Assembly: GCF_009914755.1 (NCBI RefSeq)
Contig: NC_060928.1
Source of the DNA: the human T2T-CHM13v2.0 reference genome, Homo sapiens
DNA: 64,000 nucleotides
Direction: 5' to 3' (one strand)
Each line of letters opens with the position of its first letter. Position 1 is the stretch's first letter. Position numbers and translations under genes: made by a program. The notes beneath the pieces are model-generated. The model saw only the letters and a list, made by a program, of their open reading frames with translations. It had not been told where the DNA came from and ran no database searches. Positions 9,374 to 61,143 of the stretch are shown in pieces.

Positions 9374-9846
<473 letters not shown>

Positions 9847-31402: not shown

Positions 31403-31714
31403 GCATAAATCAGAAGAGGAAAACCAGCTTCTGGACCTGGAGAGAGGATGAAAGGGAATAGGAATTGAGGGAAGCGGAAGGGAAGAATAAGGGACCCCTG
31501 GAGAGTCCCTACCAAGCCAGACATAACAAACAAAAGTCCTCTACTACTGAGGAAGACAGAACAGGGAAGCCAGCAGGGGAAGAAAAAGATGCTGCTGCTC
31601 TTGATGCCTCAAAAACAGCAAGGAAGAACCCAAGCAACTGATGTACACACCCTTGGAACAAATCTGCCCCAGAAGTACAAGACACACTCTTCGAATTCAT
31701 GGAATAAATGGGAG
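31403..31714 (+). pseudogene. Exon 1 (coding) of an unnamed TM + Sel1-like-repeat gene
   Basis: Acceptor ttgcctcag|, donor GAG|gtgagt. ATG 31448, in-frame TGA 31466-68, second ATG 31589. Ends ...SSNSWNKWE in phase 0, matching exon 2. Confidence 0.6.
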
Positions 31715-31834
31715 GTGAGTGTTCAATTCCAAGACACAAGACAGAATTGGGCAAGAGGGAGGAATGCTACTACTTGTAAGTCATAGTTACATAAAAACAG
31801 CAACCACATTGTGTTTTTCTGTAATGCTCTAGAT

Positions 31835-32296
31835 CTGTGGTCCCCAATATTTTTGGCACCAGGGACTGGTTTCCTGGAAGACAATTTTTCCACTGACTGA
31901 TGATTCAAGCACATTACATTTATTGGGAACTTTATTTCTATTATTATTACATTGTAATATATAATGAAATAATTATACAAACCATAATGTAGAATTGGTG
32001 GGAGACCTGAGCTTGTTTTCCTGTGACTAGAGGGTCCCATCTGGGGGTGATGGGAGACAGTATCAGATCATCAGGCATTAGATTCTCATAAGGAGTGTGA
32101 ACCTAGACCCCTCGCATGCACAGTTCACAATAGAATTCGCACTCCTATGAGAATCTAATGCTGCTGCTCATCTGACAGCGGGTGGAGCTTGGGCAGTAAA
32201 GCTCTGTAGCCCTGCTGATCACTTCCTGCTGTGCGGCAGGGTTCCTAGCAGGCCATAGACTGGTACCAGTCTGTGGCCCAGTGGTTGGGACCCCTG
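31835..32296. mobile_element. MER1A (hAT-Charlie)
   Basis: TIR-like ends and perfect 8-bp TSD ctctagat at 31827-34 and 32297-304. Confidence 0.88.
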
Positions 32297-32409
32297 CTCT
32301 AGATTTAAGTGTTTGTAGATGAAGCACTTTAGCTTTCCCGGAAAATGTATTGAAGATAAATTTATTCAAAGTTATCATACATTTAAAAAACCCCACAAAA
32401 CTCTTAACC

Positions 32410-32515
32410 CCTGTAACCCCAGTAGGTTTGGGAGGCCGAGCTGGGAGGATTGCTTGAGGCCAGGAGTTTGAGACCAGCACAGGTAATATTGAGAATCTCT
32501 GCTTTTACAAAACAA
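32410..32515 (+). mobile_element. FLAM/Alu left-arm fragment
   Basis: 'tttgggaggccgag...gaggccaggagtttgagaccagc'. Confidence 0.7.
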
Positions 32516-33521
32516 CTCTCAAAATTTTATATGTACACACAAATTTGGACTTCCTGAATTAACCAGTTAATAGATTTTAAAATACACATTAACCCAAGAG
32601 GTAAATAATTCATCAAAATTCAGCAAAAATAATTACTTGACACCAGATAGCTAGTTTTACATTTTCCAATTTTTTAGCCAGTTGCTAGAAATCACATAAA
32701 CACAGTCTGATTTTTATAAATTTGGCTGAAAAATTGAAGGACTATTATCAATTTCAGTTAACGTTTCTTTTTAAAAATTAGCTTAAGTTTGATATTGAAA
32801 ATATAAAGCTTTTTAAAAATTGAAATGCTGCATGAAAGGAATAAAAATCATGTTATAATGTTAGTAGAGTTCTCAACCAGCTCACTCATATTTTAACATA
32901 CTCTTACCCTAAGGTATTAAAGAGTGGATTATTTAAATACAGGTAAATAAAAGTGATAGGAGTTACAGAAATGGTGAAAAGAGGGAATGCTAGCAATTTT
33001 GTGGTGGCCAAATAAAAACAATGTATTTATCAGTAGATAAAAATGTGCAGATTAATTCTTATTTTAGATATCTGTGGCAGCTAGAAGTACAACTTTAGGC
33101 TCTTCAAGAATGACAGTTTTGATTTATATTATTCTCCACAGCTCCATTTAAGTACACTACTATGCTCTCTGCATTCCTTTTCTCTTACTTGATGGCTAAT
33201 AGGCATTGCCATTCCTTGATATCTCTCAAAGAAATAAAACTAGAAGGATTTTTAAGGAGCATAAAAATTCAGCTCCCAGCTGTGTACACACACCCATACA
33301 CACACACACTCACACTCACGAAGTTAGAGAGAAGCTCATAAAAACAACAACAATAAAAAGCCAGGGAATGTATAAATGTAGAACCTGAGTTTCTACTGAA
33401 TATTCTTAAACAGAAACTACTAAACTACTGTAATTGTTGTGCTAACAGACAGCACTGATGTCTGAGTGAGAGTTTAAATATATGAAGATTATAAGACTAT
33501 AGATAAATCTGCATATATAGC

Positions 33522-33818
33522 TTTTTTTTTTTTTTGAGACAAGCTCTCACTCTGTTGCCCAGGTTGGAGTACAGTGACACGATCATGGTCCACTGCATCC
33601 TCGACTTCCTGGGCTCAAGCAATCCTCCCTCCTCAGCCTCCCAAGTAGCTGGGACTGTACGTGCATGCCACTACACCCAGCTAATTTTCTCTAGTTTTTG
33701 CAGAGATGAGGTCTTGCTATATTGCTTAGGCTGGTCTCAAACCTCTGGGCTCAAGAGATCCTTCTGCCTTAGCCTCCCAAAATACTGAGATTATAGGCGT
33801 GAACCACCATGCCTGGCC
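33522..33818 (-). mobile_element. AluJ
   Basis: Reverse Alu with J diagnostics (gggctcaagcaatcctccc). Confidence 0.88.
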
Positions 33819-35149
33819 ACATATAGCACTTGTAAAAAAATGTTATAGTAATATATGCATGTGGTACAAAATTGAATGGTTATGCAGTAATCAGAAATCC
33901 CTCTATCCTAACCTTCATCCACCCAATCCTCCTCCTAGAGGCAACCACAATTAGCAATATCTTGAATATTTTTTCAGAGATACAACAAGAAAGATTTTAA
34001 TCTCCCTTTAGTCCCTCAGTTGAAACTTAAGAGGTTTAGATTTCCGCTGACTTAAAAACAATGCAATGGAATTCTGGTCTTTGGTTCAGATCTGAAAACA
34101 ACTTCCATTTATCAGTCCAGAAAACTGAGAACTTACTGGTTATATCACTAATGGTTCAGGATTCCTCCTTAGAAGAGAGTTCTTTTCTCTAGCAACAAGA
34201 TAAATAGCTGATTTCTTGGAAGCTGTCCTTTCTTTATAGGCCCTATTTCATTAGTTCATTGCCTGGTAATTACAGCTGCATGGAAATAAAAATGTAAAAT
34301 GAGTGTGATTTCCTTTTATAGGTTGAATAATATGGGTAGCCCTGGATTGTGAAAGGAAACAGATTGCTCCTCGGTTTTTTTTATTATATCCAAGGTTTCC
34401 TATCTGCTTTGGGTGAATTATCACTAGTCACCTAAAAACACACTGATTAAAAAAAAGGGAGAAGTCACACATCTCCCTCCTGTGCAATGCTGATAAATTT
34501 ATACGGCTATTTAAATAGTCATATGAAATATCAATTATTAATAACAGCAGTAGATCTTTTGAGTTCTAAGAGCTTTAAAACTGATGATCTCTCCAAAACA
34601 TCTATAATTTGCAACTATTTACAGTACAGCAGAACGACCTCATGAAAATATTTATGGCTCTTACAGTGTCAAAATTTTGTTTTGTTTTGGCATTTACAGC
34701 AGTTAACTAAATGCTAGTTCTGTGTTAGTTCTCATTGCTATAAGTGTGGGAGTAAATTGAAACAATTGTGACAAACATACCATGATGGCAATGAACGATG
34801 AAAACATTATTTTCATTCCCTGCTTACATCGAAATTTTTCCAGGTATCAAACCAAGAGGTGGATTACTGGGTGCCATATAGGACTCTGCAGCTGAAAGCT
34901 CCTTTTAATTTTGGCAGAACAAATAGTTATAGTATACAATGATAGAATTGAAGGTGGAAATGTCACATCTCAGAAAGTATGCTAATAGTATTACTAGCTA
35001 TGAATTATTACCTTCAGTATGTGCCAGCAGGAAATCACATAGATCTAAACATGTTCAATACTTGTTTTCCTAGGTCAACCATCTAAGATGTTATTTGTCA
35101 TTATTTATAAATTATATTTGAATTTCTGAATATAAAGCAATCAATTTTT

Positions 35150-36420
35150 CTACTATTTAAGCTGAATTTTTATTTTCAAAGCTATGCACATACATAGCTT
35201 AAAAAGTCAAATATTTCACAGGGCTAATAATTTAAAAACAGCATTCTTCTGTTCCTTCCCCTGATTATTGCTCCTCAGAGAAAACCATTTTTAATTCCCT
35301 CAGCTCTTTTTCCTGGTGTCTACTGCTATAAGTCTAAGAACACTCATTTAATGCTATTTTTTCAAATTTTTATTATACTGTTGGTTAATTTCTTATTTCT
35401 AACCCCTGCCCTCCTACCACCTCAATCACAGTTACCTTCTCCTTCTCTTCTCAGTATAGCTACAGCTTTATTTGGCTAAACCAATGTTCAGTTTTCATTA
35501 TGACCAATTAGATATCATTCATAGCTGATGCATGTAGTATATCAGGATTGTAATTATTTCTTCTACACTTTGTTTTCTGGGTACTTTAAATTGTATCTTT
35601 TAAAAAAATTTTTGCTTTGTTTTCTGTGTGCTCATGGCTACCAGAGTCATCCTGTGTTGCTTCACAAAGTGTTGAGTTCCTCTTAATATAGTCTAACACT
35701 TCAGGAAATCTCAGTTTCCCTGTTGTCTTGAAGATACACTTTCCACCCTGCTGCTCCTATCTGGGCTGCTTGTCTTCCCCATCTGCCCCTCAGCTGTCTT
35801 CCTGGGATATCCTGTCACATCATCTGGGATATTTCCTTCACCTTCCTTCTGTCTGAGATCCTTATTCCTGGATCCCGAGACTTCCTCTTTATTGATTTAC
35901 TCTCTTGTTTCTGGTGGGGCATATTTTCCAGTAGCTTCCTGAGAGACTGCCTGAGAGGTGAACTTTGAGACCTTGCCCATCTGAAAACGTCCTGATTCTA
36001 CCATCGCACGTAATTTATAGTTAGACAGGGTGTAGAATTCTAGGTTTGCAATACTTCATTCTTAAAATTTGAAGGGATTCTTCTACTATGTTGCAGGTAC
36101 TAGTTTTGGTACTGAGACATCTAGTGCCTTCAGATTCATGCTTGTTGGTATGTGACCTGCTTTCTCCTTTCCACCTCTCCAGAAGCTTTTAGCATCTTCT
36201 TTTCTATTTGTGATGTTCTGAAGTTTCTCAGTCATATGCATTTATAGGACTGTTTTTCTTCCCATTGTGCTGGACACCTTGTATCATGGTGTCACCTTTC
36301 AGTTTGGAAACTCATGTTTTTTAGTTCTGGAAAATTTTCTTGAATCATTTGTTGAATACCTTCTTCCTCTTCTTTATTTTTTCTGATTTCTTTATGAGAC
36401 TCCCATTATTTGGAAGTCAG
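35150..36420 (-). mobile_element. Ancient L1ME-like fragments
   Basis: T-rich degraded L1 motifs ('ttcttaaaatttgaag', 'ctggaaaattttcttg'). Confidence 0.45.
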
Positions 36421-36759
36421 ATATCCTGGAAAAAAATGCCATAATTCTCTTTGACCTTTTTGTTGTCCTGTTCTCTCTCTCTCACGTGGCTTGTGAACCT
36501 AATTGTAAACTTGATCAGTAAAAACCATTGTGGCAGTGCAAAGGCAAATTCAAAATTGTTATCTCTGGTTATTTTTAGTGTTTTTTCAGCTATTTCAGTT
36601 TTGTCATTTATCAATGTATCTTATGTTTTTATATTCCTCAATAAATATTTGAGTGCCCTACACTGTTTTTTCCTGATGAATTGAAGCTAGGACAAACTAG
36701 AGATAATCAGTAAATTCATTAAATTGAGTTCAAATTCTGCTCCACTCAAACTTATTCCG

Positions 36760-37530
36760 TTTATTCATTCAAACATTAAAAGAACTACAGTGTATGAAGC
36801 AGTTAGCTGGGTAGTAGGTACACAAAAATAAATGAAAATAAACAAAATGTCTTTTTCTTTGTGGAAATTATAAAATGTGAATGTATGTGTATGGGGATAG
36901 ATGGGCAGGGGAGTATCATTGTTACTGCAATGGGGGTGAGTACACATGTTGTTACTGAAGAAAAGGAAGCTCATCTAACCCTGGCTTGGGGACAATTCAT
37001 TCACACTGTCTGTGGTCTATAGAATGGGTTGGAGGGCTCAGGACAGTCTTGGAGACGAACTAAAACACCAATGAATAATTCAGGTGAGATGGTAGTGGTC
37101 TGAATTAGGTCTGTGACAAGAAGGAGAAAAGTGAATTTTGAGACACTAGGAGTTTAATTAGATAGGACTTGAATTTCATTGAATTAGAGGAAGTGAAAGT
37201 GAGTTCTAAGGCAGAAGATAGTGAATTTAATTTTGGAAAAGTTTAATTTTATGTGGGATGTGCAAGTGGGGATTTGAATCAGAAGCTCAGAAGGGACAGA
37301 AGCCCTGGAAATAGATTCTTGGGTGTCACTCACATATGGTACTGTCTGGAGCCATGTGAATTGAGAGCACAGGAGGAAAGTGTGTCAACTCAACAAGGTC
37401 AGAGAAAGTTTGATGAAGAAACCTAAGGGAACATGGAGATTTAGAGGCTAGAAAGAGAAGAATATCCCACATATGTCAAGAGAAGAGAGGGTTAAAGAAA
37501 TGAATACTTGGCATGATCAAATGCTACCAT
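36760..37530. mobile_element. L2 fragments
   Basis: 'attcattcaaac' end and purine-rich L2-like body. Confidence 0.45.
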
Positions 37531-37700
37531 ACATTCATATAAGGCTTTATGATATGTGTGATTTTGCATATATTTTCTTACTTAATCCCTGTAATGGCTT
37601 TATGGTTCATCTATCTCACTTTTCCACTTTTTTCTAAAAGTGTTTAGATAAGAAAACGGAGGCCCAGGAACACAGCAATTTGTTCAAGATTACAAAAGTT

Positions 37701-38048
<348 letters not shown>

Positions 38049-38099
38049 TCAGGTGCAGAGTGGTGAGTCCAGACTGCAAAGTGGCGCAGTTAATGTGAG

Positions 38100-38570
38100 C
38101 CCTCACTGTGTGCAGGCACTGTGCTGAGTGCTTTGTGCACATTATCTCATTTAATTTTCAAATCTTATACTATAAACTTGTTAACATTATAATCCCCATT
38201 TAAGGAATGAGGTAGAGGAAGCTCAGAGGTTAAGCAACCTGCCCAAAGTCATAAAACCAGTAAATGGTAGAAGCAGAGGAATTCACGTCCATTTGCTGTA
38301 TGACACACGTATTAACAATTCCATCATTACGTATGAATTTCTTTCATCCAAAGACTTCCCTGATTTTTTTTTTTTTTGCCTACTAATGCTTCTGGGCTGC
38401 ATAAAGATAAAAATCTCAATAAATAATAGTTATTTTGAAAGGCCTACAATGTGGTGAGGTGCTCAACTAAATAATTTATTTGTAGTCTATTCACTCTTTA
38501 CAAACCTGAATGGGAAAGTATTTTTACCCCCATTTTACAGATGAGAAAACTGACCCCCAGAGATTAAATA
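38100..38570. mobile_element. MIR fragments
   Basis: 'caggcactgtgctgagtgcttt' and 'cccattttacagatgagaaaactga'. Confidence 0.65.
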
Positions 38571-39288
38571 ACAATACACATTGTACGCATGTTTCAAAAT
38601 ATCACTTGTACCCTTAAAAATTTTTTTAGAATCACATGGGTCCTATAAATATGTACAAATATTACATATCAAAATGTTTTTAATTAAAAAAAATAAGGAC
38701 AGAGTAGGCATTCTAGCTCAAATCCTTTTCCTTTTCTTCTTCTCTTCTTTCTTCCTTCCTTTCCTCCCTTAGCCAACCCTCCTTCCCCATCTCCTCTATC
38801 CTTCTCTTTCATTTGGCCTACTGCTTCTTAGGTGACAATAAGAGTGAATTTAGAATGAGGCCTTTAGGAATGGGATATAGGTCAAGGCACTGGGATTCAG
38901 AGGAGACAAGGGGTAAGCACTTTGCTAGTGTAATTGTAATGTTTGGAACTCAGTTAAAATGTTCACCAGACTCTCTGGTGCCCTGATATACCCACATAGG
39001 GGCTTGTGTGATTGAGAACTAAGGTTTTTAGACATTTAGTTTGAAATATAATTAACTGTGTATATCAAAGTTTGTAATTTGAGACTAATAATTGAGAATA
39101 AAATTGATGGATAATTAAGTAAAATAAAATATATCTTAGACATAAAGAATAAGATACCTTAGTGGTCATTCATAATTTGTTTCATTTTTATATAAAAATT
39201 ATTTGCTTCCCATACACAAAACCTGAGTGCTCATCTACTTGATGATTTATGACACAGAACTGGAGTTACTTATGTCAAAGCTCTGCTT

Positions 39289-39589
<301 letters not shown>

Positions 39590-40061
39590 CGAAGCTCTAC
39601 TTAGAAGGACAGCAGTGCTCTATGTTCAAGACAGAGCTTTTCTCTGTGCCTCAAAAACCAGTTGAAAAAGAGCATTGCAATATTATGTGTTAACTGTTCT
39701 GTAGACCAAAAATGTTGGTTATATTGATGGCAAAACCTGAAAGAAATCCACAACGCAGAATTAGGTAGATACTGCCCCCTCTCCCTTGGAACTTTATACA
39801 TTCCGCATTTTTACTAAAATGCTTATGATGCTGTTTCACGATTTGTTTATATCTCTGCTCTGCAACTTTGAAATGCTTGAAAGCAAGGTTTAGGTCATAT
39901 GTTTATCTTTGTAACCACAGAGTTTAGCACAAATTATGTCCTCAAGTTTACAGATTTAACTAACCATAGTCAGGGACTCAAATATTGTGTAGCCAGGCAT
40001 ATGTTCTAAACCAGAAATTGTCCCAGTGTTTTCCTCACTTCACTTAGGATCACATATGGTG

Positions 40062-40355
40062 TTTTTTTTTTTTTTTTTAATACAGAGTCTCGCTCTTGTC
40101 ACCTAGGGTGGAGTGCAGTGGCACGATAATGGCTCACTGCAGCCTCAACCTTCTAGGCTCAAGTGATCCTCCTACCTCAGCCTCCTGAGTAGCTAGGACT
40201 ACAGGCATGCACCATTACTAGATAATTTTTATATTTTTTGTAGAGACAGGATCTTGCTATGTTGCCCAGACTAGTCTCCAGCTTCTGGGCTCAAGTGATC
40301 CTGCTGCCTCAGCCTCTCAAAGTGCTGGAATTACAGGTGTGAGCCACCACACCTA
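40062..40355 (-). mobile_element. AluJ
   Basis: Reverse Alu. Confidence 0.88.
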
Positions 40356-42719: not shown

Positions 42720-45200
<2,481 letters not shown>

Positions 45201-45214
45201 GTTTTTAATATCTT

Positions 45215-48421: not shown

Positions 48422-48563
48422 CTCCTGGCCACAGTGGGAGCCATGATCTCTCTCCTTTACATGTGGCTGTATTCCCAGAGCTTTCATTTCCATGTGGCAC
48501 ATTTTTATGCTCATTTTGGGTACCCCAGTGCTCAGCATATTGTTAGGCAAAGATACGTGAAAA
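48422..48563 (+). pseudogene. Exon 2 of the Sel1-like gene (TM helix plus start of SLR)
   Basis: Long polypyrimidine tract with tgtag|, donor A|gtaagg. Encodes LLATVGAMISLLYMWLYSQSFHFHVAHFYAHFGYPSAQHIVRQRYVK; phase 0 to 1. Confidence 0.8.
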
Positions 48564-48764: not shown

Positions 48765-48810
48765 GAGCTGGTGTAGTGAAGGATGAAGAGAAGGCAATGC
48801 ATTGGTTTAG
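48765..48810 (+). pseudogene. Exon 3 of the Sel1-like gene
   Basis: ttttgtttacctag| ... TTAG|gtaaga. Encodes (R)AGVVKDEEKAMHWF(R), the SLR 'GxGVxxDxxxAxxWF' motif; phase 1 to 2. Confidence 0.85.
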
Positions 48811-48867
48811 GTAAGATGATGACATCTGCCCAAAAGCAAAGCTTCAGAGTTACCTGTTCAGAAAGTA

Positions 48868-49934: not shown

Positions 49935-50130
49935 TCCGATATTGTAGCCAACAGCCACAATGTGGCCATATAAATGTAAATGAATTAAAACTAAATAAAA
50001 TCAGAATTTTAGTTCATAGTTGCACTGTCTACATTTCAAGTATTCAATAGCCAGTACTGGCTACTGTACTGGACAGTGCAAATATAGATCGATTCTATCT
50101 TTGGTAAAAATTCTACTGGAAAGTACTAGC
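49935..50130. mobile_element. MER3/MER33-like hAT fragment
   Basis: 'gtagccaacagccacaatgtggcc...acatttcaagtattcaatagcc...ggacagtgca'. Confidence 0.6.
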
Positions 50131-51343
50131 AATTTACATTTATGTTTCAGCAATTGGAAATAGTGCTTAAGGGTCAGTTTACGTGTTATTGAATTTCTAA
50201 CATTCCCAGATAGTCCTTTCCAGCATTTTGATTGCCTGTATAGTTTGGAGAAAAGAGTATAATTATATTAATATTTGGAAAAGCTGATGAATTGATTGAA
50301 ACAAATACGCAACTAATTTTTTTAAAAGTACTGTACTTGTTTCAAGTAAGAAAAACATTTTTTTTTTTTTTGAGACAGAGTCTCCCTCTGTCACCCAGGC
50401 TGGAATGCAGTGGCGTGATCTCAGCTCACTACAACCTCCTCCTCCTGGGTTCAAGCAAGCCTCAGCCTCCCAAGTAGCTGGGATTATAGGCATGTGCCAC
50501 CATGCTCGGCTAATTTTTTTTTTATTTTCAGTAGAGACTGGGGGTTAGTCAGGGTTCTCTAGAGGGACAGAACTAATAGGATAGATATTTATATATAAAG
50601 GGGAGTTATTAAGTAGTATTAACTAACATGATCTCAAGTCCCACAGTAGGCCATCTGCAAGCTGAGAAGCAAGGAAGCCTGTCTGAGTCCCCAAGCTGAA
50701 GAACTTGGAGTCCAATGCTTAAGGGCAGGAAGCATCCAGCATGGGAGAAAGATGTAGCCTGGGAGGCTAAGCCAATCTAGCCTTTTCACATTTTTCTGCC
50801 TGCTTTTATCCTAGCTGCGACAGCAGCTGATTAGATTGTGCCCACCCAGATTAAGGGTGGGTCTGCCTTTCCCAGCCCACTAACTCAAATGTTAATCTCC
50901 TTTGGCAACACCCTCACAGACACACCCAGGATCAATCCTTTGCATCCCTCAATCCAATCAAGTTGACACTCAGTATTAACCATCACAAGTCCACCCCTTG
51001 TCAACTTTAACCGATACACATCTCCTGAGATCATACATAATCTTCAAATAAAAGCAATAATAAGCTCATAATTATGCCTAACATAATGCAACTATCCTTC
51101 ATACAGCCAGAAATGCACCACTCCCCAACCCAAATACTCTTACATAAAGTTAATGATGCTCGAATGCTGATATGAAGTAAATAAATCTTATGTCACATGA
51201 TAAACGAAAAAGGAAATAAAATGAAGTTATTTTCTTAGTACAAGTGTATATATGCACACACATGTTTTTAACAAAAGAAGGAGGAAATACTCATGACAAT
51301 TACAGTCTCCATTTCTGCAACTGGTCACGGGGCCATTGATGAT

Positions 51344-51487
51344 TACCTTCTTCTACTACCCATTCGTATTTCCTTTACCTTCATCAAGCACCTTAGCAGA
51401 TCATGGTTTTTTTCCTACCTTCTTCTGCTACTCATTCGTATTTCCTTTGCCTTCATCAAGCACCTTAGCAGGTCATGGTTTTTTTCT
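51344..51487. repeat. 72-bp tandem duplication inside HERV-L
   Basis: Two copies starting at 51344 and 51416 with a few mismatches. Confidence 0.9.
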
Positions 51488-54400
51488 TGGTGGAGTGACC
51501 CAAACCTTCATTCCTGAATGGTCTGGGCCAACTGCCTGGATTGGGCTATTGTAGTTTCCCATTGACCTTAATCACAAAGCATGATAATACTAAGAGACAT
51601 CCTAAGGGATCTCCTGTATTCCATACATACTCTTCCTTACCTCTGTTGTGGAGTAGTAGACTGACTTCATCTTGATAGCCCGGGTCAATCACCCTAGCCA
51701 ACACTGTAACTCACTTCTTAGCCTGTTGACTTAAAGGTAGGAGGAGCCTAAAGTGTCCAGTTGGCAATCTTAACTTCTAGTTTAATGGAATCACTGTGTC
51801 TCCTGGTGGCAACATTTCTCCCACTGGAACTAAGACCTCTAGGCCAGCAGAATGTAATGTCATGGAAACAGGAAGCAAAAATTTTGTTAGTGGATCACTA
51901 GGGGTGATGGTGAGTGGTGCCACTTCCATTTCCAACCCTTGATTCCTGGACCCATGAATCCTGGCTATGGGAGAAACAGTACCATATATTGAATGCTGAT
52001 TCAGAGCATACATGGCCTTTTGGAGAACTTTGCCCCAGCCCTGGCAAAGTATTGTCACCTAGTTGGCATTGTAATTGTGACTTCAAAAGGGCATTCCACC
52101 ATTCTATCAATACAGCTGCTTCAGGATAATGGGGAACATGGTAAGACCAATGAATTCCATGAGCACAAGTCCACTGCTGCACTTCTTTAGCCATAAAGTG
52201 AGTGCCTTGGTCAGAGGCAATACCATGACTGTGGATAAGGCATTCCGTGAGCCCATGGATGGTAGTCTTGGCAGAATCATTGCATGCAGGATAGGCAAAC
52301 CCATATCTGGAGTAAGTGTCTATTCCAGTGAGGACAAACCTCTGCCCTTTCCGTGATGGAAGAGGTCCAATATAATCAAGTTGCTACCAGGTAGCTGGCT
52401 GATCACCCCGAGGAATTTTGCCATATCGAGAGCTTAGTGTTGGTCTCTGTTGCTGGCAAATTGGGCACTCGGCAGTGGCCGTAGCCAGGGCAGCCTTGGT
52501 GAGTGGAGGTCCATATTGCTGAGCCCATGTGTAACCTCCACACCTGCCACCATGGCCATGTTGTTCATGGGCCCATTGGGCAATGACAGGAGTGGCTGGG
52601 GAAAGAGGCTGAGTGGTAACCACAGAATGGGTCATCTTATCCACTTGATTATTAAACTTCTCCTCTGCTGAGATACTTGTAGGTGAGCACTCACATGGGA
52701 TACAAATACAGTTTTTGATCACCTAGAGAGGTCTATCCACATACATCTTTCTCAAATTTCTTTGTCACCAATTTTCCAATCATACTTCTTCCAAGTCTCT
52801 GACCATCTAGCCAAACCATTGGCTACAGCCCATGATTCAGTATATAATTGCATATCTGGCCATTTCTCCTTCCATGCAAAGTGTACAACTAGGTGAACTG
52901 CTTGAAGTTCTCCTCACTGGGAAGATTTCCCTTCACTGCTGTCCTTCAGGGATGTCCTAGAAAGGGGCTGTAGTGCTGCAGCTGTCCACTTTCAGGTGGT
53001 GCTTGTGTATCGTGCAAAACCATCTGTCTTCTCTTAAAAAAACCCTAGTCTTCTCTTCCTCTGTCAACTGATCATAGGGAACTGCCCATAAGGCCATTGG
53101 TGTATGCTGTGGGAGAGAAGATAGGGTGGCAGGAGTGGAGACCATGAGCATTTGAACCACTTCCTCATGTAACTTACTTGTGCCTTCAGGACCCACTCGA
53201 GCCCAATCACGTATATACCACTTCCATTTAATAATGTAATGCTGCTGTGCATGACTTACTTTATAGCTAAATGGGTCATAAAGCACTCAGTTCATGATAG
53301 GCAGTTCAGGTCACATGATGACTTGATGACCCATCATTAAACATTCAGTTCCCACCAAAACCCAGTAACAGGCCAAGAGCTGTCACTCAAAAGGAGAGTA
53401 GTTATCTACAGAAGTTGGCAGGGCCTTGCTCCAAAATCCTGGAGACCTCCACTGTGATTCATCTATGGGGGCCTGGCAAAGGCTCCAAACAGCACCCCTA
53501 TCTGCCACTGACCCCTCAAACACCATTGAATCTGCTGGGTCATATGGTCCAAGTGGCAGAGCAGCTTGCACAGCAGCCTGGACCTGTTGTGGAGCCTTCT
53601 CCTGTTCTGGACCCCACTCAAAACTGGCAGCCTTTTGGGTCACTGGATAAATGGGCCAGAGTAACACACCCAAATGAGGAATGTGTTGCCTCCAAAATCC
53701 TAATAGGCCCACTAGGCATTGTGCCTCTTTTTTGGTTGTAGGAGGGGCCAAATGCAGCAACTTATCCTTCACCTCAGAAGGAATATCTTGACAGGCCCCA
53801 CACCACTGGATCCCTAGAAATTTGACTGAGGTAGAAGCTGCCTGAATTTTTGTTAGATGTATTTCCCATCCTCTGGCATGCAAATGTCTCACCAATAAGT
53901 CCAGTGTGTTTGCTACTTCTTGCCCACTGGATCCAATCAGCATAATGTCATCAATGTAATGGACAAGTTTGATATCTTGTGGAAGCGAAAGGCGATCAAG
54001 TGCTCTCCGAATAAGATTATGACACAAAGGCAGAGAGTTGATATACCCCTGAGGTAGGACAGAAAAAGGTATATTGCTGGCCTTACCAGCTGAAGGCAAA
54101 TTGCTTCTGGGGGGCTTTATGGACAGGAATGGAGAAAAAGGCATCTGCGAAGTCAGTGGCTGCATACCAGGTACCAGATGTGCTAATTTGCTCAAGCAAT
54201 GAAACCACATCTGGTACAGTTGCTGCAGTTGGAGTCACCACTTGGTAAAGCTTACAGTAATCCACTGTCATTCTTCAAGATCCATCTGTCTTCTGCACTG
54301 GCCAAATAGGAGAGTTGAATTAGGTTGTTGTGTGGATCACCACCCCTGTGTCCTTCAAGACTTTGATGGTGGCGCTAATCTCTGCAATCCCTGCAGGGAT

Positions 54401-56682
54401 GCGATATTGTTTTTGATTTACTATTTTTCTAGGTAGAGGCAGTTCTAATGGCTTCCATTTGGCCTTTCCCACCATAATAGCCCTCACCCTACCAGTCAGG
54501 GAGCCAATGTGGGGGTTCTGCCAGCTACTAAGTATGTCTATGCCAATTATGCATTCTGGCACTGGAGAAATAACCACAGGATGAGTCCAGGGACCCAATG
54601 GACCCACTGTATGTTGGACCTGAGCTAAAACTCCATTAATTACCTGACCTCCCTAAGCCTCTACTTTAACTGGAGAACCACAATGACATTTTGGGTCCAC
54701 TGGAATCAACTTCAGCTCAGAGCCAGTGTCCAGTAGTTCCCCAAATGTCTGATCATTTCTCTTTCCCCAGTGCACAGTTACCCTGGCAAAAGGCCAGAGG
54801 TCGACTTGGGGAAGGATGGGAGAAAAATTAACAGCATAAGTTGTCAGTAGTGTAGTGGGGTCCTTCCTTAAGGGGACATGTCCTCCCCTTCATTCAAGGG
54901 GCTCTGGGCCTGCAAACTGGCTCAAGTCTGGAAATTGATTGAGGGATCATGATTCTCTGTTTTTATAATTCAAATTAGTCTTTTGTCCATTCCATCTGGA
55001 AGTTTTCTGCTTGTCTAAATTGAGTAGGAATGCAGTACACTTCCCATCAATTTCACTTCTAGGAACACTGTGATTAATTAGCCATTGCCAGAGCTCTACA
55101 CAAGTCAGAATATTCTAATTTCTGCTTTGCCTCTGCTGTCCATTATAGTAGCTATGCCCACCTTGCCTTTGATGGTTAAGTGCCATCACTTGGCCTCTGC
55201 CACCTTGGGATCCAATTATTCTCATTCTATTTAAATTTTGTAGTTGAGTGACTGCCATTCCCACTGTTAGATCTGCCACACGGAGAAGAGCAATTACAGG
55301 ACTCTTCAAAGGTGCAGATGCTGCCCTCACAAATCTATTTTGCAATGCATTGGTCAAGGGTATATCTTCTGGACCCTCCCAATTGAAATATATAGGTCTA
55401 AAGTGACTCCAGCATCCTAATCTCCCTAAGCCTTTGGATCCCTTCCTCTACATTAAACCAAGGGAGATCAGGCATTTCCAGCTCGCTCACAGTGGGCCAT
55501 CGTTTAATCATATTTCAGCTAACTAAGCAAATAAACTATTGAATCTTTTTTAACTCCCCAAGCTGCAACATTAAATGCAGAATCCCTGCTTAGTGGACCC
55601 AAATCAATAAATTCAGCCTGATACAACTCTATTTTTTTCCAACATTACACCACACGCTTACTATCCATTCCCATGCCTGTTCTCCAGATTTCTGTTTACA
55701 TAAATTACAAAACTCAAGCAGTTCTTTTTGAATGTTGCACACCGCCTCCTGGATCACACTCTGAACCTCACATCTAGAGGCCTGCCAGGACTTTAGTTAT
55801 AGGTCTAGAGGCAAACAGGGGTATTGGGGGTGGCTCCTGAGGAGAATCAACATTATCTTGCCTGGCAACTGCCTCAGGGGAAGCCATCACTGTTGCCTCA
55901 GGCAGCATAGGGTTTACCTCCTCAGACAAAGGTGGAAAGACTGATGGCAGCATGGGTTGGGGAGGGGATGTTGCCACTACTGGGGATTTGGCAATTGTTT
56001 CTTCTGGCAAAAAAGTTTCATCAGAATTTACAAACACAGTGTCCCCAGTTTCATCAGGGTCCTCCCACACATCCTCATTCCAAGTTGCAGGGTCCCATTC
56101 TTTTCCAATCAATGCCCTCATTTTAATAGTAGACACCTGGAAAGGCCGTGCATGCACCTTTCATTGCAGGTCAGCCACTCATGAGAAGAGCTTGTGTCTG
56201 TTTTTTTGCAATTTCAGCTCTTTCTCTACAGGAGATAAGACTCAGGACAATCTTGGCAGACTTGAGGCTCAGTATCTGCTTCTGAAGCCAGGAGTTAGAA
56301 TCTCTAACTTCATAATTTTCTTTCATCACTTTGTCCACTGAACTTAGGAGCAACCAACCAACTTCATTATGTTCCTTGGTCCTTCACATATGGTCAAAGG
56401 TATTATGTATAGAGTCACTAGACTCCTTGCCTCTCATGAGCAGTGAATCAGGAGTGTCAAATGCATGTATTTTGCATAACTCTCTAAACAGTTCATGCCA
56501 AGGACTATCAGTGTTCTCCATAGTTTTAGAAGTAGAGTCCTTAGCATTTTGGGGTCTAATCATATTAAGCAGTGAACTCCATAAACCCCAAAACCATCCT
56601 TAATATTCTGTTCCTCTGGAACCACTCCTGGTACCAAAATCTGTATTAGTCAGGGTTTTCTAGAGGGAAGAACTAATAGGAG

Positions 56683-56686
<4 letters not shown>

Positions 56687-56720
<34 letters not shown>
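56687..56720. repeat. (TG)n microsatellite in the 5' LTR
   Basis: Direct reading. Confidence 0.95.
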
Positions 56721-56723
<3 letters not shown>

Positions 56724-57416
56724 GGAGTTATTAAGCAGTATTAACTCACCCAATCACAAGGTCCCACAATAGGCCATCTGCAAGCTGAGCAGCAAGGAAG
56801 ACAGTCTGAATCCCAAAGCTGAAGAACTTGGAGTTCGATGTTTGAGGGCAGGAAGCATCCAGAATGAAAAAAGAGTAGATTGGGAAGCTAAGTCAGCTAG
56901 CCTTTTCATGCACTTCTGCCTGCTTTTATCCTAGCTGCTCTGGCAGCTGATCAGATTGTGCCCACCCAGATTAAGGGTGGGTCTGCCTTTCCCAGCCCAC
57001 TGATTTAAATGTTAATCTCCTTTGGCAACACCCTCACAGACACACCCAGGATCAATACTTTGCATCCCTCCGTCCAATCAAGTTGACAGTATTAACCATC
57101 ACACAGGGTTTCACCATTTGGCCAGGCTAGTCTCGAACTCCTGACCTCAAATGATACACCCACCTAGACCTTTCAAAGTGCTGGGATTATGGGCATGAGC
57201 CACCATATCTGGCCAAGAAAAACATTTTTAATGAAGGAGGCTTATTATTTTTTGGCTAGATATATGGTAAGATAGAAGTAATGGTTTCTAGTAATAGTCT
57301 TTATTGGTGCTGTCCTTGGTTTTATGAAGGGGATGCTTTTTTATAAGGTTGTTTCTTTGTTTTCTATAGCATGCTTCCCCCCATCACCAGTTCCCTTTCT
57401 TCTTCCTCCTTTTCAG

Positions 57417-57503
57417 ACAAGCCTCCCAGCAGGACCATCCTGGTGCTGCCTTTAACCTTGCAGTAGGAACACTGAAAAACATGACTGCCTCCATGGAAGC
57501 AGG
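57417..57503 (+). pseudogene. Exon 4 of the Sel1-like gene
   Basis: Strong polypyrimidine tract with ttttcag|, donor GG|gtaata. Encodes (R)QASQQDHPGAAFNLAVGTLKNMTASMEA(G); phase 2 to 2. Confidence 0.85.
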
Positions 57504-58583
57504 GTAATAAAATTTGCTGTCTTTTCCCTTCTAGCTGACATGTCATTCTTTCCAAAGATGCCCCTCATATACTACCTGCAATTCACAGGCAAAAACATTT
57601 TTTATATAGCTCACTTTCTGCTCTTGCCTTTCTATGTTCTTACATTGCTGAGTTACAATAAAAGTCACAAAGCAAGGGAATGCAATATTCATATATGTGC
57701 ATATATCCCACTGACTAAATTCTTCAGGCATTCTGTGAGCCTGAGATGAAATGCTGGGTTATTTCATGGTCCTCACACTCTCCTGTGAATTCTTATGGCC
57801 CCCTTAAATATCATCTTTACAGCCTTACCACATTTTCTTATAAACAGAATAGAGCAGACACGAATATAAGGTAGAGAACTCTCTTTGGGCACAAATATCT
57901 TTAGTGTCTGTTGGACTAATCCTCTTGATTACTCACAGTTATAAAAATAAATATACCACTACTTTCTCTGGAGAAGATTTTCTTAATGCTTTTGAATAGT
58001 TCATAGTCTATGACATTTTTATTCAGCTATTTTGAGTCAGACACATTTTTTGATAGGGTCCCGAAAACAAACCATTAAACTTTCAGCTTGTTTTCTCTTT
58101 TTTTAAAGTAATGCAACTGACATCTACTTCATTTCCAATTAATGTGTACAACAACCTCCTGCAACTCCAGCATTTAATCTTCTACCTCAGGCTAAGAGGT
58201 AGACCAGGTTTAGAAAAAAAGTTCAGTAAGGGGCTGAGGATGGGGTGAATCTTTGGAATTTGTACAATAGTCAGGGATGTTGCCTGCACAATTGGTAATA
58301 AAATTTTGAAATGACCATTTTGAGGCAGCCAAGTCAAAATGGCGAAGCCAATATGTTCTACTTTACAACTGACGGTTACCAGATGGGAGGTTGTATAGAA
58401 TCCCTCTCCAGTTAGCACTCCCAAACCAAAATATAGAATTTGCTTGCAAGAGAGGGGTGCCTCCAACATTACATGAGATTCTTGGCTAGAAAAACTTCTC
58501 TAAATAGGGCAAAATAATCTAGCTAGGCTCTGGTCTTTTAAGAATATTTATTTGGGTAGCTCTGATTGTATTATGAAGATTCT

Positions 58584-60851
58584 TGTATTAGTCCATTCTC
58601 ATGATGCTATGAAGAAATACACGAGACTGGGTAATTAATAAAGAAAAGAGGTTTAATTGACTCAGTTCTGCATGGCTGGGAAGGCTTCAGGAAGCTTACA
58701 ATCATGGCAGAAGGGGAAGCAAACACGTCCTTCTTCACAAGGTGGTAGGAGAGAGAAGAATGAGAGCTGAGTAAAGGGGGAAGCCTCTTATAAAACCATC
58801 AGATCTTGTGAGAACTTACTATCACAAGAATAGCATGGGGGAAACCACCCCCATGATTCAATTACCTCCCACTGGGTCCCTCTCATAACACATGAGGATT
58901 ATGGGAACTACCAGTAAAGAGGGAGACTCAACCATACCATATCATTCTGCCCCATCCCCTCCCAAATCTCATCCTCACATTTCAAAATACAATCATGCCC
59001 TTCCAACAGTCCCCCAAAGTCTTAACTCATTCCAGTATTAACTCAAAAGTCCAAGTCCAAAGTCTCATCTGAGACAAGGCAAGTTATTTCTGCCTATGAG
59101 CCTGTAAAATCAAAAGCAAGTTAGTTACTTCCTAGATAACAATAGGGGTACAGACATTGGGTAAATACACCCATTCCAAAATAGAAAAATTGACCAAAAC
59201 AAAGGGGCTACCAGCCTTATGCAAATCTGAAATCTGATAGGGCCCTCATTAAACCTTAAAGTTCCAAAATGATCTCCATTGATTGCATGTCTCATATCCA
59301 GGTCATACTTACGCCAGAGGTGGGCTCCCACAGCCTTGGGCATCTCCGCCCCTGTGGCTTTGCAGGGTACAGCCACCCCTCCTGGCTTGTTTCATGGGCT
59401 GGCATTGAATGTGGCTTTTCCAGGTACAAAGTGCAAGCGGCCAGTGGATCTACCATTCTGGGGTCTGGAAAATGGTGGCCGTCTTCTCATAGTTCCACTA
59501 CTCAGTGCCCCAGTGAGGACTCTGTGTGGGGGCTCTGACCCCACATTTCCCTTCCACACTGCCGCAGCAGAGGTTATCCATGGGAGCCCTGCCATGTAGC
59601 AAACTTTTGCCTGGACGTCCAGTCATTTCCGTATATCTTCTGAAATCTAGGTGGAGGTTTCCAAAACTCAGTTCTTGACTTCTGTGCACCCACAGGCTCA
59701 ACACCACATGGAAGCTGCCAAGGTTTGGGGCTTGCACCCTCTGAAGCCATAGCCTGACATGTACCTTGGCTCCTTTTAGCCATGGCTGGAGCGGCAAGCA
59801 CACAGGGCACCAAATCCCTAGGCTGCACACAGCAGGGGGTCCCTGGGACCAGCCCAGGAAACCACTTTTTTCTCATAGGGCTCTGGGTGTGTGATGGGAG
59901 GGGCTTACATGAAGGTCTCTGACATGTCCTGGATACAGTTTCCCCATTGTCTTGGTAATTAACATTGGGCTCCTTGTTACTTATGCAAATTTATGCAGTG
60001 GGCTTAAATTTCTCCTCAGAAAATGGGGTTTTCTTTTCTATCACTTTGTTTGGCTGCAAATTTTCCAAACTTTTATGTACTGTTTTCTCTTTAACATTTT
60101 GCTACTTAGAAATTTCTTCTGCTAGATACCCTAAATCATCTCTCTCAAGTTCAAAGTTCCACAGATCTCTAGGTCAGGGGCAAAATGCCTCCAGTCTCTT
60201 TGCACGGCAACAGTGACCTTTACTCCAATTGCCAACAAGTTCCTCATCTCCATATGAGACCACCTCAGCCTAGACTTCATTGTCCATATCAATATTAGCA
60301 GTTTGGTTGAAGCCTTTCAACAAGTCTCTAGGAAGTTTCAAACTTTCCCACATTTTCCTGTCTTCTTCTGAGCCCTTCAAACTGTTTCAGCCTCTGCCTG
60401 TTACCCAGTTCCAAAGTTGCTTCCACATTTTCAGGTATCTTTACAGCAGTGCCCCACTCCTGGTACCAATTTACTATATTAGTTTGTTAATATGCCACTC
60501 TGAAGAAATAACTGAGACTGGGTAATTTATAAAGGAAAGAGGTTTAATCGACTCACAGTTCTGCATGGCTGGGAAGGCCTCAGGAAACTTACAATCATGG
60601 CAAAAGGGGAAGCAAACACATCCTCTTCACAAGGCAGCAGGAGAGAGAAGAATTAGAGATGAGCAAAGGTAGAAGCCCCTTATAAAACAATCAGCTATCA
60701 CGAGAACTTACTCACGATCATGAAAATAGCATGGGGGAAACTGCCCTCATGATTCAAATACCTCCCATTGGGTCCCTCTCATGACACATGGGGATTATGG
60801 GAACTACAATTCAAGATGAGATTTTGGTGGGGACACAGCCAAACTATATCA
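58584..60851 (-). mobile_element. Full THE1 (THE1D/MSTA-like) MaLR: LTRs 58584-58944 and 60475-60851 with ~1.5-kb internal region
   Basis: Paired LTRs with THE1 motifs and a typical non-coding internal sequence. Confidence 0.9.
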
Positions 60852-61010
60852 GTACTCATGATGAAACCCAGGTGAAATGGCAAGTGTTTCCCTCATCACC
60901 TTACAATGAGTTTAAACAGCTGGTACTCTGGCCCTTAACTCAAACTCTTGAATGTGCAGGTGCTTTTGGTTTACTCTTTCTTAGCACTACTAAATAACTG
61001 TTTCTTCTAG

Positions 61011-61143
61011 GGATGTAGAAATGCTCCTTAATGTTGCTGCAAAATGGGGGATCCAAGAAGCCCAAGAACTTCTGGAGAATGTTATTTGGACTAAAAGCAA
61101 GCTCTTGCCAACTGAAAGAACCAGGAGTTCTTATAAACCATAA
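61011..61143 (+). pseudogene. Exon 5 (terminal coding) of the Sel1-like gene
   Basis: tttcttctag|. Encodes (G)DVEMLLNVAAKWGIQEAQELLENVIWTKSKLLPTERTRSSYKP with TAA at 61141-43. Candidate poly(A) signals ATTAAA 61695 and AATAAA 63197. Confidence 0.8.

What the first reader, a model, noticed from the sequence alone, without database searches (positions are those of the whole stretch)
31403..61143. Hidden five-exon gene encoding a membrane-anchored Sel1-like-repeat protein
Seen: five non-repeat islands, each with AG acceptor and (except the last) GT donor, chain in consistent phases (0,1,2,2) across introns of ~16.7, 0.2, 8.6 and 3.5 kb. From ATG 31589 they give a 534-nt stop-free frame (177 aa): MLLLLMPQKQQGRTQATDVHTLGTNLPQKYKTHSSNSWNKWE-LLATVGAMISLLYMWLYSQSFHFHVAHFYAHFGYPSAQHIVRQRYVK-R-AGVVKDEEKAMHWF-R-QASQQDHPGAAFNLAVGTLKNMTASMEA-G-DVEMLLNVAAKWGIQEAQELLENVIWTKSKLLPTERTRSSYKP*. 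Established: the Sel1-like repeat consensus (AQxxLGxxYxxGxGVxxDxxxAxxWFxxAAxQG) continues seamlessly across three splice junctions, which is hard to get by chance. Inference: a type II membrane protein with a ~17-aa hydrophobic helix and 2-3 SLRs. I do not recognise it as SEL1L/2/3, LRP2BP, DELE1 or COA7, so it may be an unannotated gene or a lost one.
Basis: partly seen in the sequence, partly recalled or inferred. Interest (0 to 1): 0.92.

Follow-up and report, generated by a model that had tools for sequence, protein, structure and literature searches.

The report
Unannotated Sel1-repeat gene inside H2AZ1-DT
The human "non-coding" RNA gene H2AZ1-DT still carries, spread over five exons, an unbroken reading frame for a small membrane protein that other land vertebrates keep as an ordinary gene, but the human copy has changes that look damaging.

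Summary
Five AG/GT-bounded exons (31589-31714, 48422-48563, 48765-48810, 57417-57503, 61011-61143, + strand) splice in phases 0,1,2,2 into a 177-codon open frame.

It is not chance. A sloth protein searched against the whole human genome hits exactly these five exons, in order, and one noise hit. Profile searches find over 100 tetrapod orthologues and no human, ape, mouse, rat, frog or fish record. All 50 aligned orthologues carry Pfam Sel1. The gene tree follows the species tree.

The family looks like a type II membrane protein of about 165-175 aa: a basic N-terminus, one hydrophobic helix, an invariant His-rich motif, one canonical and one divergent Sel1-like repeat, and an N-x-T sequon present in 50 of 50.

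The human frame is intact, but Arg replaces both hallmark repeat glycines, which are G in 50/50 and 49/50 orthologues; Arg occurs at those positions in 0 and 3 of 997 unrelated repeats. One of these changes also alters the last base of exon 2.

My reading: a coding gene of other tetrapods that is probably decaying in humans (about 0.55), against a missed functional human gene (about 0.35). I found no paper describing it.

The parts
31403..31714 (+). Exon 1. 31403-31588 is the 5' leader; it holds a 6-codon in-frame uORF followed by a stop. The CDS runs from ATG 31589 to 31714, residues 1-42, the basic N-terminal (probably cytosolic) segment. The donor is GAG|gtgagt.
   Evidence: hhalign against the 50-member family profile gives 97.8% probability, E 7.4e-13. 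The sloth protein, residues 3-42, hits window 31598-31717 at E 6.5e-8.
48422..48563 (+). Exon 2, residues 43-89 plus the first base of codon 90. It holds the hydrophobic helix (about 48422-48481), the invariant His-rich motif FHFHVAH.YAH (48482-48514), and helix A of the canonical Sel1-like repeat. It carries the human-only codons R84 (48545-48547) and V88 (48557-48559), and the derived A at 48563.
   Evidence: 19 orthologues, E down to 4.1e-17; unique in the genome; E 3.6e-18.
48765..48810 (+). Exon 3, residues 90-105 (the last two bases of codon 90 through the first two of codon 105). It holds the turn and helix B of the canonical repeat. It is an annotated H2AZ1-DT exon. M101 is the first in-frame ATG available to the RefSeq lncRNA isoform.
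   Evidence: hub table; (E 0.46, 75% identity over 25 residues, colinear).
57417..57503 (+). Exon 4, residues 105-134 (part). It holds the end of repeat 1, the start of the divergent repeat 2, and the conserved N-x-T sequon (N126 at 57478-57480). It is an annotated H2AZ1-DT exon.
   Evidence: E 6.2e-6; sequon in 50 of 50.
61011..61143 (+). Exon 5 coding part, residues 134-177 and TAA 61141-61143. It holds helix B of repeat 2, a final helix and the tail. W146 (61045-61047) replaces the family's Q/H. RefSeq extends this exon to 61188.
   Evidence: E 6.3e-10; hhalign 99.5%, E 1.9e-22.

Best explanation
The five exons are the human orthologue of a single-copy tetrapod gene. That gene encodes a protein of about 165-175 aa. 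The protein has a basic N-terminal segment of about 40 aa, one membrane-spanning helix, an invariant His-rich juxtamembrane helix, and a short Sel1-like-repeat (SLR) domain of one canonical repeat, one divergent repeat and flanking helices, with a conserved N-x-T sequon.

Shown: orthology, exon structure, SLR membership of the family, and uniqueness in the human genome.

Inferred: the protein sits N-in/C-out (type II), with the SLR domain in the lumen of the secretory pathway or outside the cell. There it would act as a membrane-tethered protein-binding adaptor, as other SLR proteins such as SEL1L do.

In humans the locus is filed as the lncRNA H2AZ1-DT, whose RefSeq transcript uses only coding exons 3-5. 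The human reading frame and all splice sites are intact. However, the one canonical repeat has lost both hallmark glycines (G84R, G90R) and an invariant leucine (L88V). G90R is also a G>A change at the last base of exon 2.

I therefore read the human copy as a gene under relaxed constraint, on its way from coding gene to lncRNA or unitary pseudogene, rather than a fully working gene.
For: Orthology:
- The exon-2 peptide finds 19 proteins among 22 candidates (E 4.1e-17 to 3.1e-13). Eighteen are named placental mammals and all 19 carry PF08238.
- Family profiles find 104 and 132 (120 listed) proteins. They come from placentals, marsupials, platypus, birds, crocodilians, turtles, squamates, tuatara and caecilians.
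- The sloth protein against the 3.1-Gb human genome gives 6 matches at E<=1: the five exons in colinear order plus one noise hit.
- The gene tree follows the species tree.

SLR membership:
- Pfam Sel1 hits 5 of 5 orthologues at 32.8-37.2 bits against a cut-off of 30.7, and 50 of 50 at E<=0.001.
- The family profile hits 17 solved SLR chains.

Topology:
- Median K+R is 3.5 in the 15 residues before the helix and 0 after it.
- The N-x-T sequon is present in 50 of 50.
- The C-terminal domain has no Cys in 47 of 50.

Human decay:
- The columns of human R84, V88 and R90 read G in 50/50, L in 50/50 and G in 49/50 orthologues.
- Human has 3 private changes at otherwise invariant columns, against 0-2 in 24 other species.
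- In 997 SLR repeats from unrelated proteins those positions read G 870/A 112/R 0 and G 944/R 3. Only 7 of 997 lack both glycines.
- Human scores 38.1 bits on that generic model, against 43.4-66.2 for 25 non-primate orthologues.
- The human helix has a lower hydropathy (1.34) than all 50 orthologues (1.38-2.56).
- The marmoset model reads the helix part of exon 2 in another frame than the repeat.
- No human or ape protein record exists in the 5.8-billion-protein library.
- The locus is absent from the Ribo-seq ORF and PhyloCSF tables I could search.
Against: - The human frame is intact over 177 codons. It has a start aligned to the orthologues' start, a stop at the same place as in several carnivores, and canonical splice sites with strong polypyrimidine tracts. 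Long neutral decay would probably have broken it.
- Human divergence from the placental majority is ordinary: 13 of 115 positions, against 3-14 in 15 other placentals. The human branch is 0.20 against a median of 0.11, no longer than flying fox or ground squirrel.
- The private-change count is biased, because human is the only primate in that set.
- The 997 generic repeats were collected with the family profile, which favours glycines at these positions.
- The human repeat still scores 38 bits.
- The gelada and marmoset models are poor Ensembl models that read into introns, so they are weak evidence of primate decay.
- No primate DNA, population data, RNA-seq, Ribo-seq or proteomics could be examined.
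- Topology and function are inferred only, and no structure model could be made.
Confidence: 0.55

Rival explanations
1. This is a genuine human protein-coding gene that annotation has missed. Transcripts containing exons 1-5 are made in some tissue and translated into a functional 177-aa membrane SLR protein. The human-specific Arg residues are tolerated or adaptive.
For: The frame, start, stop and all eight splice sites are intact. Total divergence is within the placental range and the branch length is unremarkable. The repeat is still recognisable at 38.1 bits. The TM helix, His motif and sequon are retained. Exons 3-5 are spliced in humans exactly as in the coding orthologues (hub table).
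Against: Arg sits at two glycine positions where it is essentially never seen (0 and 3 of 997) and where the family is invariant. The G>A change at the last base of exon 2 weakens that donor. The curated RefSeq transcript lacks exons 1-2. There is no human or ape protein record. The locus is not in the searched Ribo-seq or PhyloCSF tables. The gene appears dispensable, since no mouse or rat orthologue was listed.
Confidence: 0.35
2. Only the annotated lncRNA isoform matters. It either acts as RNA from the bidirectional H2AZ1 promoter, or yields a truncated 77-aa product from M101 (exons 3-5) that lacks the membrane helix and helix A. The upstream exons are dead.
For: NR_125923.1 joins a first exon at the H2AZ1 promoter to exons 3-5 only (hub table). 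M101 is the first in-frame ATG in those exons. The 14 papers found with the gene's names appear, from their titles and abstract starts, to use it as a lncRNA or as an entry in gene lists (listing only).
Against: Exons 1 and 2 keep consensus splice sites and open frames. A 77-aa fragment would begin in the middle of a repeat. No evidence on isoform use could be examined here.
Confidence: 0.08
3. This is a chance open frame, or a duplicated or retro-copied fragment of a known SLR gene, or bacterial contamination suggested by the database names 'EsiB-like' and 'YbeT-like'.
For: Single exons give no Pfam hit. The automatic names point to bacterial proteins.
Against: None of 20000 shuffles stayed open. 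There are five colinear exon hits with a sloth protein. The locus is unique in the genome. Introns are present and the gene tree matches the species tree. Pfam Sel1 hits in the human genome lie elsewhere. NCBIfam gives only matches far below cut-off to MerG, MotX and ExoR.
Confidence: 0.01

Closest known systems
Predicted tetrapod proteins named 'uncharacterized protein LOC...', 'secretory immunoglobulin A-binding protein EsiB-like' or 'sel1-repeat-containing protein YbeT-like' (e.g. Bos taurus LOC511175 / F6RP65_BOVIN, Choloepus didactylus, Alligator sinensis LOC112550297)
   Same: They are colinear over all five exons. They share the same membrane helix, the FHFHVAH.YAH motif, the canonical SLR, the N-x-T sequon and the C-terminal tail. 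Identity is 74-88% in exon 2.
   Different: The human copy has R84, V88, R90 and W146 where the family has G, L, G and Q/H. It is annotated as a lncRNA and has no protein record. None of these orthologues appears to have been studied (no relevant paper).
SEL1L / yeast Hrd3 (ERAD adaptor; PDB 8ket, 8kes, 5b26)
   Same: It is a membrane-anchored protein with SLRs on the luminal side, used as a protein-binding scaffold. The family profile matches one SEL1L repeat at E 3e-21 to 7e-18.
   Different: From recall: SEL1L has about 794 aa with many repeats in clusters, a signal peptide, a fibronectin type II domain and a C-terminal anchor. Here there are about 170 aa, about two repeats and an N-terminal anchor. 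It lies at a separate locus.
Bacterial multi-repeat SLR proteins (6ok3, EsiB 4bwr, HcpC 1ouv; MotX, ExoR, MerG)
   Same: They share the 36-40-aa repeat consensus. These are the best PDB matches, at E 4e-51 and 8e-46, summed over many repeats.
   Different: They have many tandem repeats, are secreted or periplasmic, and Hcp proteins are Cys-rich. This family is Cys-free in 47 of 50. It has introns and a vertebrate phylogeny. NCBIfam scores are 16-33 bits against cut-offs of 330-450.
Other human SLR genes: DELE1, LRP2BP, COA7, SEL1L2, SEL1L3
   Same: They share the repeat type. DELE1 (8d9x) and LRP2BP (9fqr) match the profile at E 4e-9 and 6e-8.
   Different: They have different architectures and sit at different loci. 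Pfam Sel1 over the human genome gives 21 matches, none at this locus. Assigning those places to these genes rests on recalled map positions.
lncRNAs that are fossils of ancestral coding genes (Hezroni et al. 2017, PMC5577775; gene-loss relics, PMC10195156)
   Same: The exons of a human lncRNA descend from the coding exons of a gene kept in other vertebrates.
   Different: In those cases the frame is usually destroyed. Here the whole frame is still open. The locus is not named in the text or the held supplements of either paper.

Membership tests
Sel1-like repeat (SLR) proteins, Pfam PF08238 | At least one 36-aa repeat scoring above the Pfam gathering cut-off (30.7 bits) | tested here: inconclusive
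   Orthologues pass: 5 of 5 at 32.8-37.2 bits, and 50 of 50 at E<=0.001. The human repeat is split over three exons. Single-exon peptides give nothing, and Pfam over the genome does not see the locus. The spliced human peptide could not be handed to the Pfam tool. A generic SLR model built here from 997 unrelated repeats gives it 38.1 bits, the lowest of the full-length sequences.
Sel1-like repeat (SLR) proteins, Pfam PF08238 | Hallmark small residues: Gly (or Ala) of 'LG' in helix A and 'GxG' in the A-B turn | tested here: not met
   Human has Arg at both positions (R84, R90). Unrelated repeats have G 870/A 112/R 0 and G 944/R 3 of 997 there. Orthologues have G in 50/50 and 49/50. The second G of GxG (G92), the Ala pair and the W-F motif are kept.
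Sel1-like repeat (SLR) proteins, Pfam PF08238 | Tandem helix-turn-helix repeats forming an alpha/alpha solenoid | not testable with these tools
   Structure prediction accepted no jobs. Indirect support: the family profile, positions 68-152, aligns to about 2.3 consecutive repeats of 6ok3.
Tetrapod 'EsiB-like / LOC' orthologue group | Colinear match of all five coding exons, single copy | tested here: met
   five colinear hits; unique; human nests with a rodent inside placentals.
Tetrapod 'EsiB-like / LOC' orthologue group | Membrane helix, then FHFHVAH.YAH, then the SLR, then the N-x-T sequon | tested here: met
   All are present in the human peptide. The sequon is in 50 of 50 members.
Tetrapod 'EsiB-like / LOC' orthologue group | Conserved synteny (next to H2AZ1) | not testable with these tools
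   The protein libraries give no genomic context, and no vertebrate genome other than the window's own is held.
Unitary pseudogene | A disabling lesion (stop, frameshift, lost start or splice site) in a gene that is intact in other species | tested here: not met
   There is no stop or frameshift, the start is kept, and all sites are AG/GT. The only lesions are missense changes at invariant sites and a donor -1 G>A.
Long non-coding RNA (current annotation) | No conserved protein-coding frame | tested here: not met
   A 177-codon frame is orthologous to coding genes across tetrapods.
SEL1L/Hrd3 family | Many SLRs in clusters, a signal peptide and a C-terminal anchor (features recalled) | tested here: not met
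   The protein has 177 aa, one Pfam repeat and an N-terminal helix. It lies at a separate locus.

The most novel reading that the evidence does not exclude
H2AZ1-DT is not a lncRNA gene but a missed human protein-coding gene. It would make a 177-aa glycosylated type II membrane protein with a minimal Sel1-like-repeat ectodomain. It would be the founding human member of an unstudied tetrapod family, possibly older, since ESM Atlas points to similar proteins of about 217 aa in arthropods and flatworms (a lead only).
Probability: 0.33. Interest if true: 0.75.

Novelty: new member of a known kind. Interest (0 to 1): 0.6.

Why it matters
If the human frame is translated, the human proteome gains a conserved membrane protein of unknown function that two decades of annotation have missed. 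If it is decaying, the locus is an unusually clean snapshot of a coding gene turning into a lncRNA while its frame is still whole.

Either way, work that treats H2AZ1-DT as a pure lncRNA should take account of its coding ancestry. That includes the cancer network papers listed.

The tetrapod family itself is unstudied. It has one membrane helix, an invariant His-rich motif and about two SLRs, and it could be characterised in cattle, pig or chicken.

Tried and rejected
- Pfam on the four single-exon peptides gave no Sel1 hit, only one noise hit at E 0.092. The repeat is split over three exons.
- Chance frame: rejected.
- Paralogue, duplicate or retro-copy: rejected. Exon 2 is unique in the genome, with the next hits at E 2.8 and 7.6.
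- Bacterial origin suggested by the automatic names: rejected.
- Overall acceleration of the human lineage: not seen.
- Gelada as a witness for residue 90: rejected. Its Gly comes from reading the end of intron 2.
- The search of 1.84 billion representatives returned 141,512 generic SLR proteins, and its top 150 were swamped by multi-repeat proteins. It therefore said nothing about fish or invertebrate orthologues.
- Rfam found no family in the window.
- Literature: the gene's names gave 14 and 7 papers, none about coding potential judging from titles and abstract starts. 'EsiB-like', 'YbeT-like' and 'LOC511175' gave only 3 bacterial papers. Possible names such as SEL1L4 gave nothing relevant.
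- The locus is not in the main text or held supplements of PMC5577775 and PMC10195156.
- It is not in supplements S1-S5 or the held half of S6 of PMC6886504. The second half of S6 and the PDF were not visible. The coordinates I searched were estimated from a recalled hg38 position.
- It is not in the 5 held supplements of PMC10032668.
- An alignment query is not accepted for this genome, so a single protein was used instead.


Full report
**1. The observation**

I read the four regions, then spliced and translated them by coordinates.
- The coding exons are 31589-31714, 48422-48563, 48765-48810, 57417-57503 and 61011-61143.
- Each is preceded by AG, and the first four are followed by GT.
- The phases are 0,1,2,2, and the introns are 16707, 201, 8606 and 3507 nt.

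Exon 1 as an exon starts at 31403, after AG at 31401-31402. Reading upstream in frame meets a stop, with no other ATG before 31589.

The donors are GAG|gtgagt, AAA|gtaagg, TAG|gtaaga and AGG|gtaata, and the acceptors have good pyrimidine tracts. None of 20000 shuffles of the CDS stayed open. According to the hub table, exons 3-5 are exactly the last three exons of the RefSeq lncRNA H2AZ1-DT. Exons 1 and 2 are not in that transcript.

**2. It is a real, conserved coding gene elsewhere**

Pfam on the single-exon peptides found nothing. This is expected, because the repeat is split over three exons.

The 47-aa exon-2 peptide found 19 proteins among 22 candidates (E 4.1e-17 to 3.1e-13).
- Eighteen come from named placental mammals of all four superorders: sloth; elephant and manatee; many carnivores, ruminants, camel, whale and bat; and squirrels.
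- One comes from an unnamed source.
- All 19 carry PF08238.

Their sequences are colinear with all five human exons, including the N-terminal exon.

A profile of 12 placentals found 104 proteins among 1620 candidates. A profile of 50 tetrapods found 132 proteins, of which 120 were listed. These came from placentals, koala and Tasmanian devil, platypus, many birds, alligators, turtles, lizards and snakes, tuatara and caecilians, plus a few unnamed short fragments.
- No human, ape, mouse, rat, frog or fish record was listed.
- The only primates were two Ensembl models, gelada and marmoset.

The sloth protein searched against the whole human assembly gave six matches at E<=1. Five are the five exons in colinear order (E 6.5e-8, 3.6e-18, 0.46, 6.2e-6, 6.3e-10) and one is a noise hit on another chromosome (E 0.77).

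Further support:
- The exon-2 peptide is unique in the genome.
- hhalign gives exon 1 a probability of 97.8% and exon 5 a probability of 99.5% against the family profile.
- An IQ-TREE tree of 30 sequences recovers amphibians, sauropsids, marsupials and placentals. Human sits next to a ground squirrel, elephant with manatee, and so on.

The locus is therefore a single-copy orthologue. It is not a paralogue, a retro-copy or contamination.

**3. What the protein is**

SLR membership:
- Pfam Sel1 hits 5 of 5 tested orthologues above the gathering cut-off (32.8-37.2 against 30.7 bits).
- It hits all 50 members of alignment A2 at E<=0.001.
- The family profile matches 17 solved SLR chains: bacterial Sel1 proteins, EsiB, HcpC, SEL1L, DELE1 and LRP2BP.
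- It matches 141,512 generic SLR proteins in the representative library.
- NCBIfam gives only matches far below cut-off to MerG, MotX and ExoR.

Profile positions 68-117 are one canonical repeat. Positions up to about 152-159 align to a second repeat in multi-repeat proteins.

Before the repeat lies a hydrophobic helix, with a median 19-residue Kyte-Doolittle value of 1.99 in 50 members. After it comes a stretch, F-H-F-H-V-A-H-x-Y-A-H, that is almost invariant across tetrapods.

The evidence on topology is as follows:
- The 15 residues before the helix hold a median of 3.5 Lys+Arg, and the 15 after it hold none.
- An N-x-T sequon in the C-terminal domain is present in 50 of 50.
- That domain has no cysteine in 47 of 50.

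From the positive-inside rule and the conserved sequon, I infer a type II orientation with the SLR domain luminal or extracellular. By analogy with SEL1L/Hrd3 and other SLR proteins, I infer a role as a small membrane-tethered protein-binding adaptor. This is inference: no structure, partner or localisation was tested, and a mitochondrial anchor cannot be excluded.

**4. The state of the human copy**

For function:
- The frame, start, stop and splice sites are all intact.
- Human differs from the placental majority at 13 of 115 core positions, inside the range of 3-14 seen in 15 other placentals.
- Its branch (0.20) is not exceptional.

Against function:
- Human has three private changes at columns invariant in 24 other tetrapods: G84R, L88V and G90R. 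The other species have 0-2.
- In the 50-member alignment these columns read G 50/50, L 50/50 and G 49/50.
- R84 and R90 replace the two hallmark glycines of the only canonical repeat.
- I extracted 997 repeats from 146 unrelated multi-repeat proteins. At those two positions they read G 870/A 112/R 0 and G 944/R 3, and only 7 of 997 lack both glycines.
- On the model built from those repeats, human scores 38.1 bits and 25 non-primate orthologues score 43.4-66.2.
- Codon 90 is split A|GA. The derived A at 48563 is therefore also a G>A change at the last exon base before the donor.
- The three changes lie within 19 nt.
- W146 replaces Q/H (28/20 of 50).
- The human helix is less hydrophobic (1.34) than in any of the 50 orthologues.

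The marmoset has G, L and G at the three positions, so on that model the three changes arose after the split of the marmoset's lineage from ours.

The primate models themselves are poor:
- The marmoset model reads the helix part of exon 2 in another frame than the repeat. This is consistent with a 1-nt difference in the C-run at 48523-48526. It also reads into introns 3 and 4.
- The gelada model skips helix A and reads the end of intron 2 into exon 3, so it says nothing about residue 90.

Caveats:
- Human is the only primate in the private-change comparison.
- The generic repeats were collected with a profile that itself has glycines at these positions.
- I could not examine other primate genomes, human variation, RNA-seq, Ribo-seq or proteomics.

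**5. Verdict on mechanism**

I give about 0.55 to the reading that the human copy is under relaxed constraint. On this reading it is an intact-frame relic on the way from coding gene to lncRNA or unitary pseudogene. Its last three exons are reused by a transcript from the bidirectional H2AZ1 promoter.

I give about 0.35 to a live, missed protein-coding gene.

I give under 0.1 to a reading in which only the lncRNA isoform, or a 77-aa fragment starting at M101, matters.

A chance frame is excluded.

**6. Comparison with what is known**

The closest relatives are the unstudied predicted proteins of other tetrapods. They carry automatic names ('uncharacterized LOC...', 'EsiB-like', 'YbeT-like', and in two Ensembl records a mis-projected 'SEL1L2').

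The family belongs to the SLR superfamily but is none of the known human SLR genes. Pfam Sel1 over the human genome gave 21 matches, none at this locus. I assign those places to DELE1, LRP2BP, SEL1L, SEL1L2, SEL1L3 and COA7 from recalled map positions.

The human copy fails the formal test for a unitary pseudogene, because it has no disabling lesion. It also fails the test for a lncRNA, because it has a conserved frame.

**7. Literature**

- Searches for H2AZ1-DT, LOC256880, H2AFZ-DT, RP11-696N14.1, ENSG00000246090 and NR_125923 gave 14 and 7 papers (listings only). By title and abstract start they are cancer-network, GWAS or gene-list papers.
- Searches for the orthologues' names gave only bacterial papers.
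- The locus is not named in the text or held supplements of two papers on lncRNAs derived from lost genes, PMC5577775 and PMC10195156.
- It is not in supplements S1-S5 or the held first half of S6 of the GENCODE PhyloCSF paper, PMC6886504. The rest of S6 and the PDF were not visible.
- It is not in the five held supplements of PMC10032668 on the 7,264 Ribo-seq ORFs.
- So I found no description of this frame in print, within those limits.

**8. Novelty and score**

This is a new member of a known kind: an SLR protein gene, unannotated in human, in an uncharacterised tetrapod family. I set interest at 0.6. A conserved 177-codon frame missing from the human gene set is notable, and the coding-to-lncRNA snapshot is instructive. 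However, the human copy may be dying, and the family's function is unknown.

Noticed in passing
window 48482-48514: A His-rich juxtamembrane stretch, F-H-F-H-V-A-H-x-Y-A-H, is almost invariant from caecilians to mammals. It has four His in eleven residues directly after the membrane helix. It could be a metal- or pH-sensing face or the capping helix of the repeat domain. This was not tested.
   Followed up: no
window 48545-48563: The three human-only changes at invariant residues (G84R, L88V, G90R) lie within 19 nt. The last one is also the final base of exon 2 (donor -1 G>A).
   Followed up: partly
window 31448-31468: There is a six-codon upstream ORF (MKGNRN, then a stop) in the exon-1 leader, in frame with the main ATG. 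Its ATG lines up with the start of the longer camel model P0007, which reads through.
   Followed up: partly
window 48523-48526 (compared with P0094): The marmoset Ensembl model switches from frame 2 to frame 0 of exon 2 at the CCCC run. This implies a 1-nt length difference, either a real frameshift or an assembly error. The model also reads into introns 3 and 4.
   Followed up: partly
proteins P0092, P0093 (unnamed short contigs): These are degenerate copies in which exons 2-4 are contiguous, without introns, on contigs of about 0.7-1.7 kb. They may be processed copies or cDNA-derived sequence from some mammal. Their origin was not traced.
   Followed up: no
ESM Atlas, query P0028: The nearest clusters by language-model features are eukaryotic Sel1 proteins of about 217 aa. 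They are commonest in Arthropoda (score 0.97) and Platyhelminthes (0.94). This is a lead that the family may be older than tetrapods.
   Followed up: no
protein P0031 (Mirounga leonina model): This gene model fuses the SLR protein with a mitochondrial-carrier domain (PF00153). It is probably an annotation artefact.
   Followed up: no
window 51344-51486 and 9504-9846: There is a 72-bp unit repeated twice (94% matches) in intron 3, and a 169-bp two-copy array with an Alu-like unit. No Rfam family occurs anywhere in the window.
   Followed up: no
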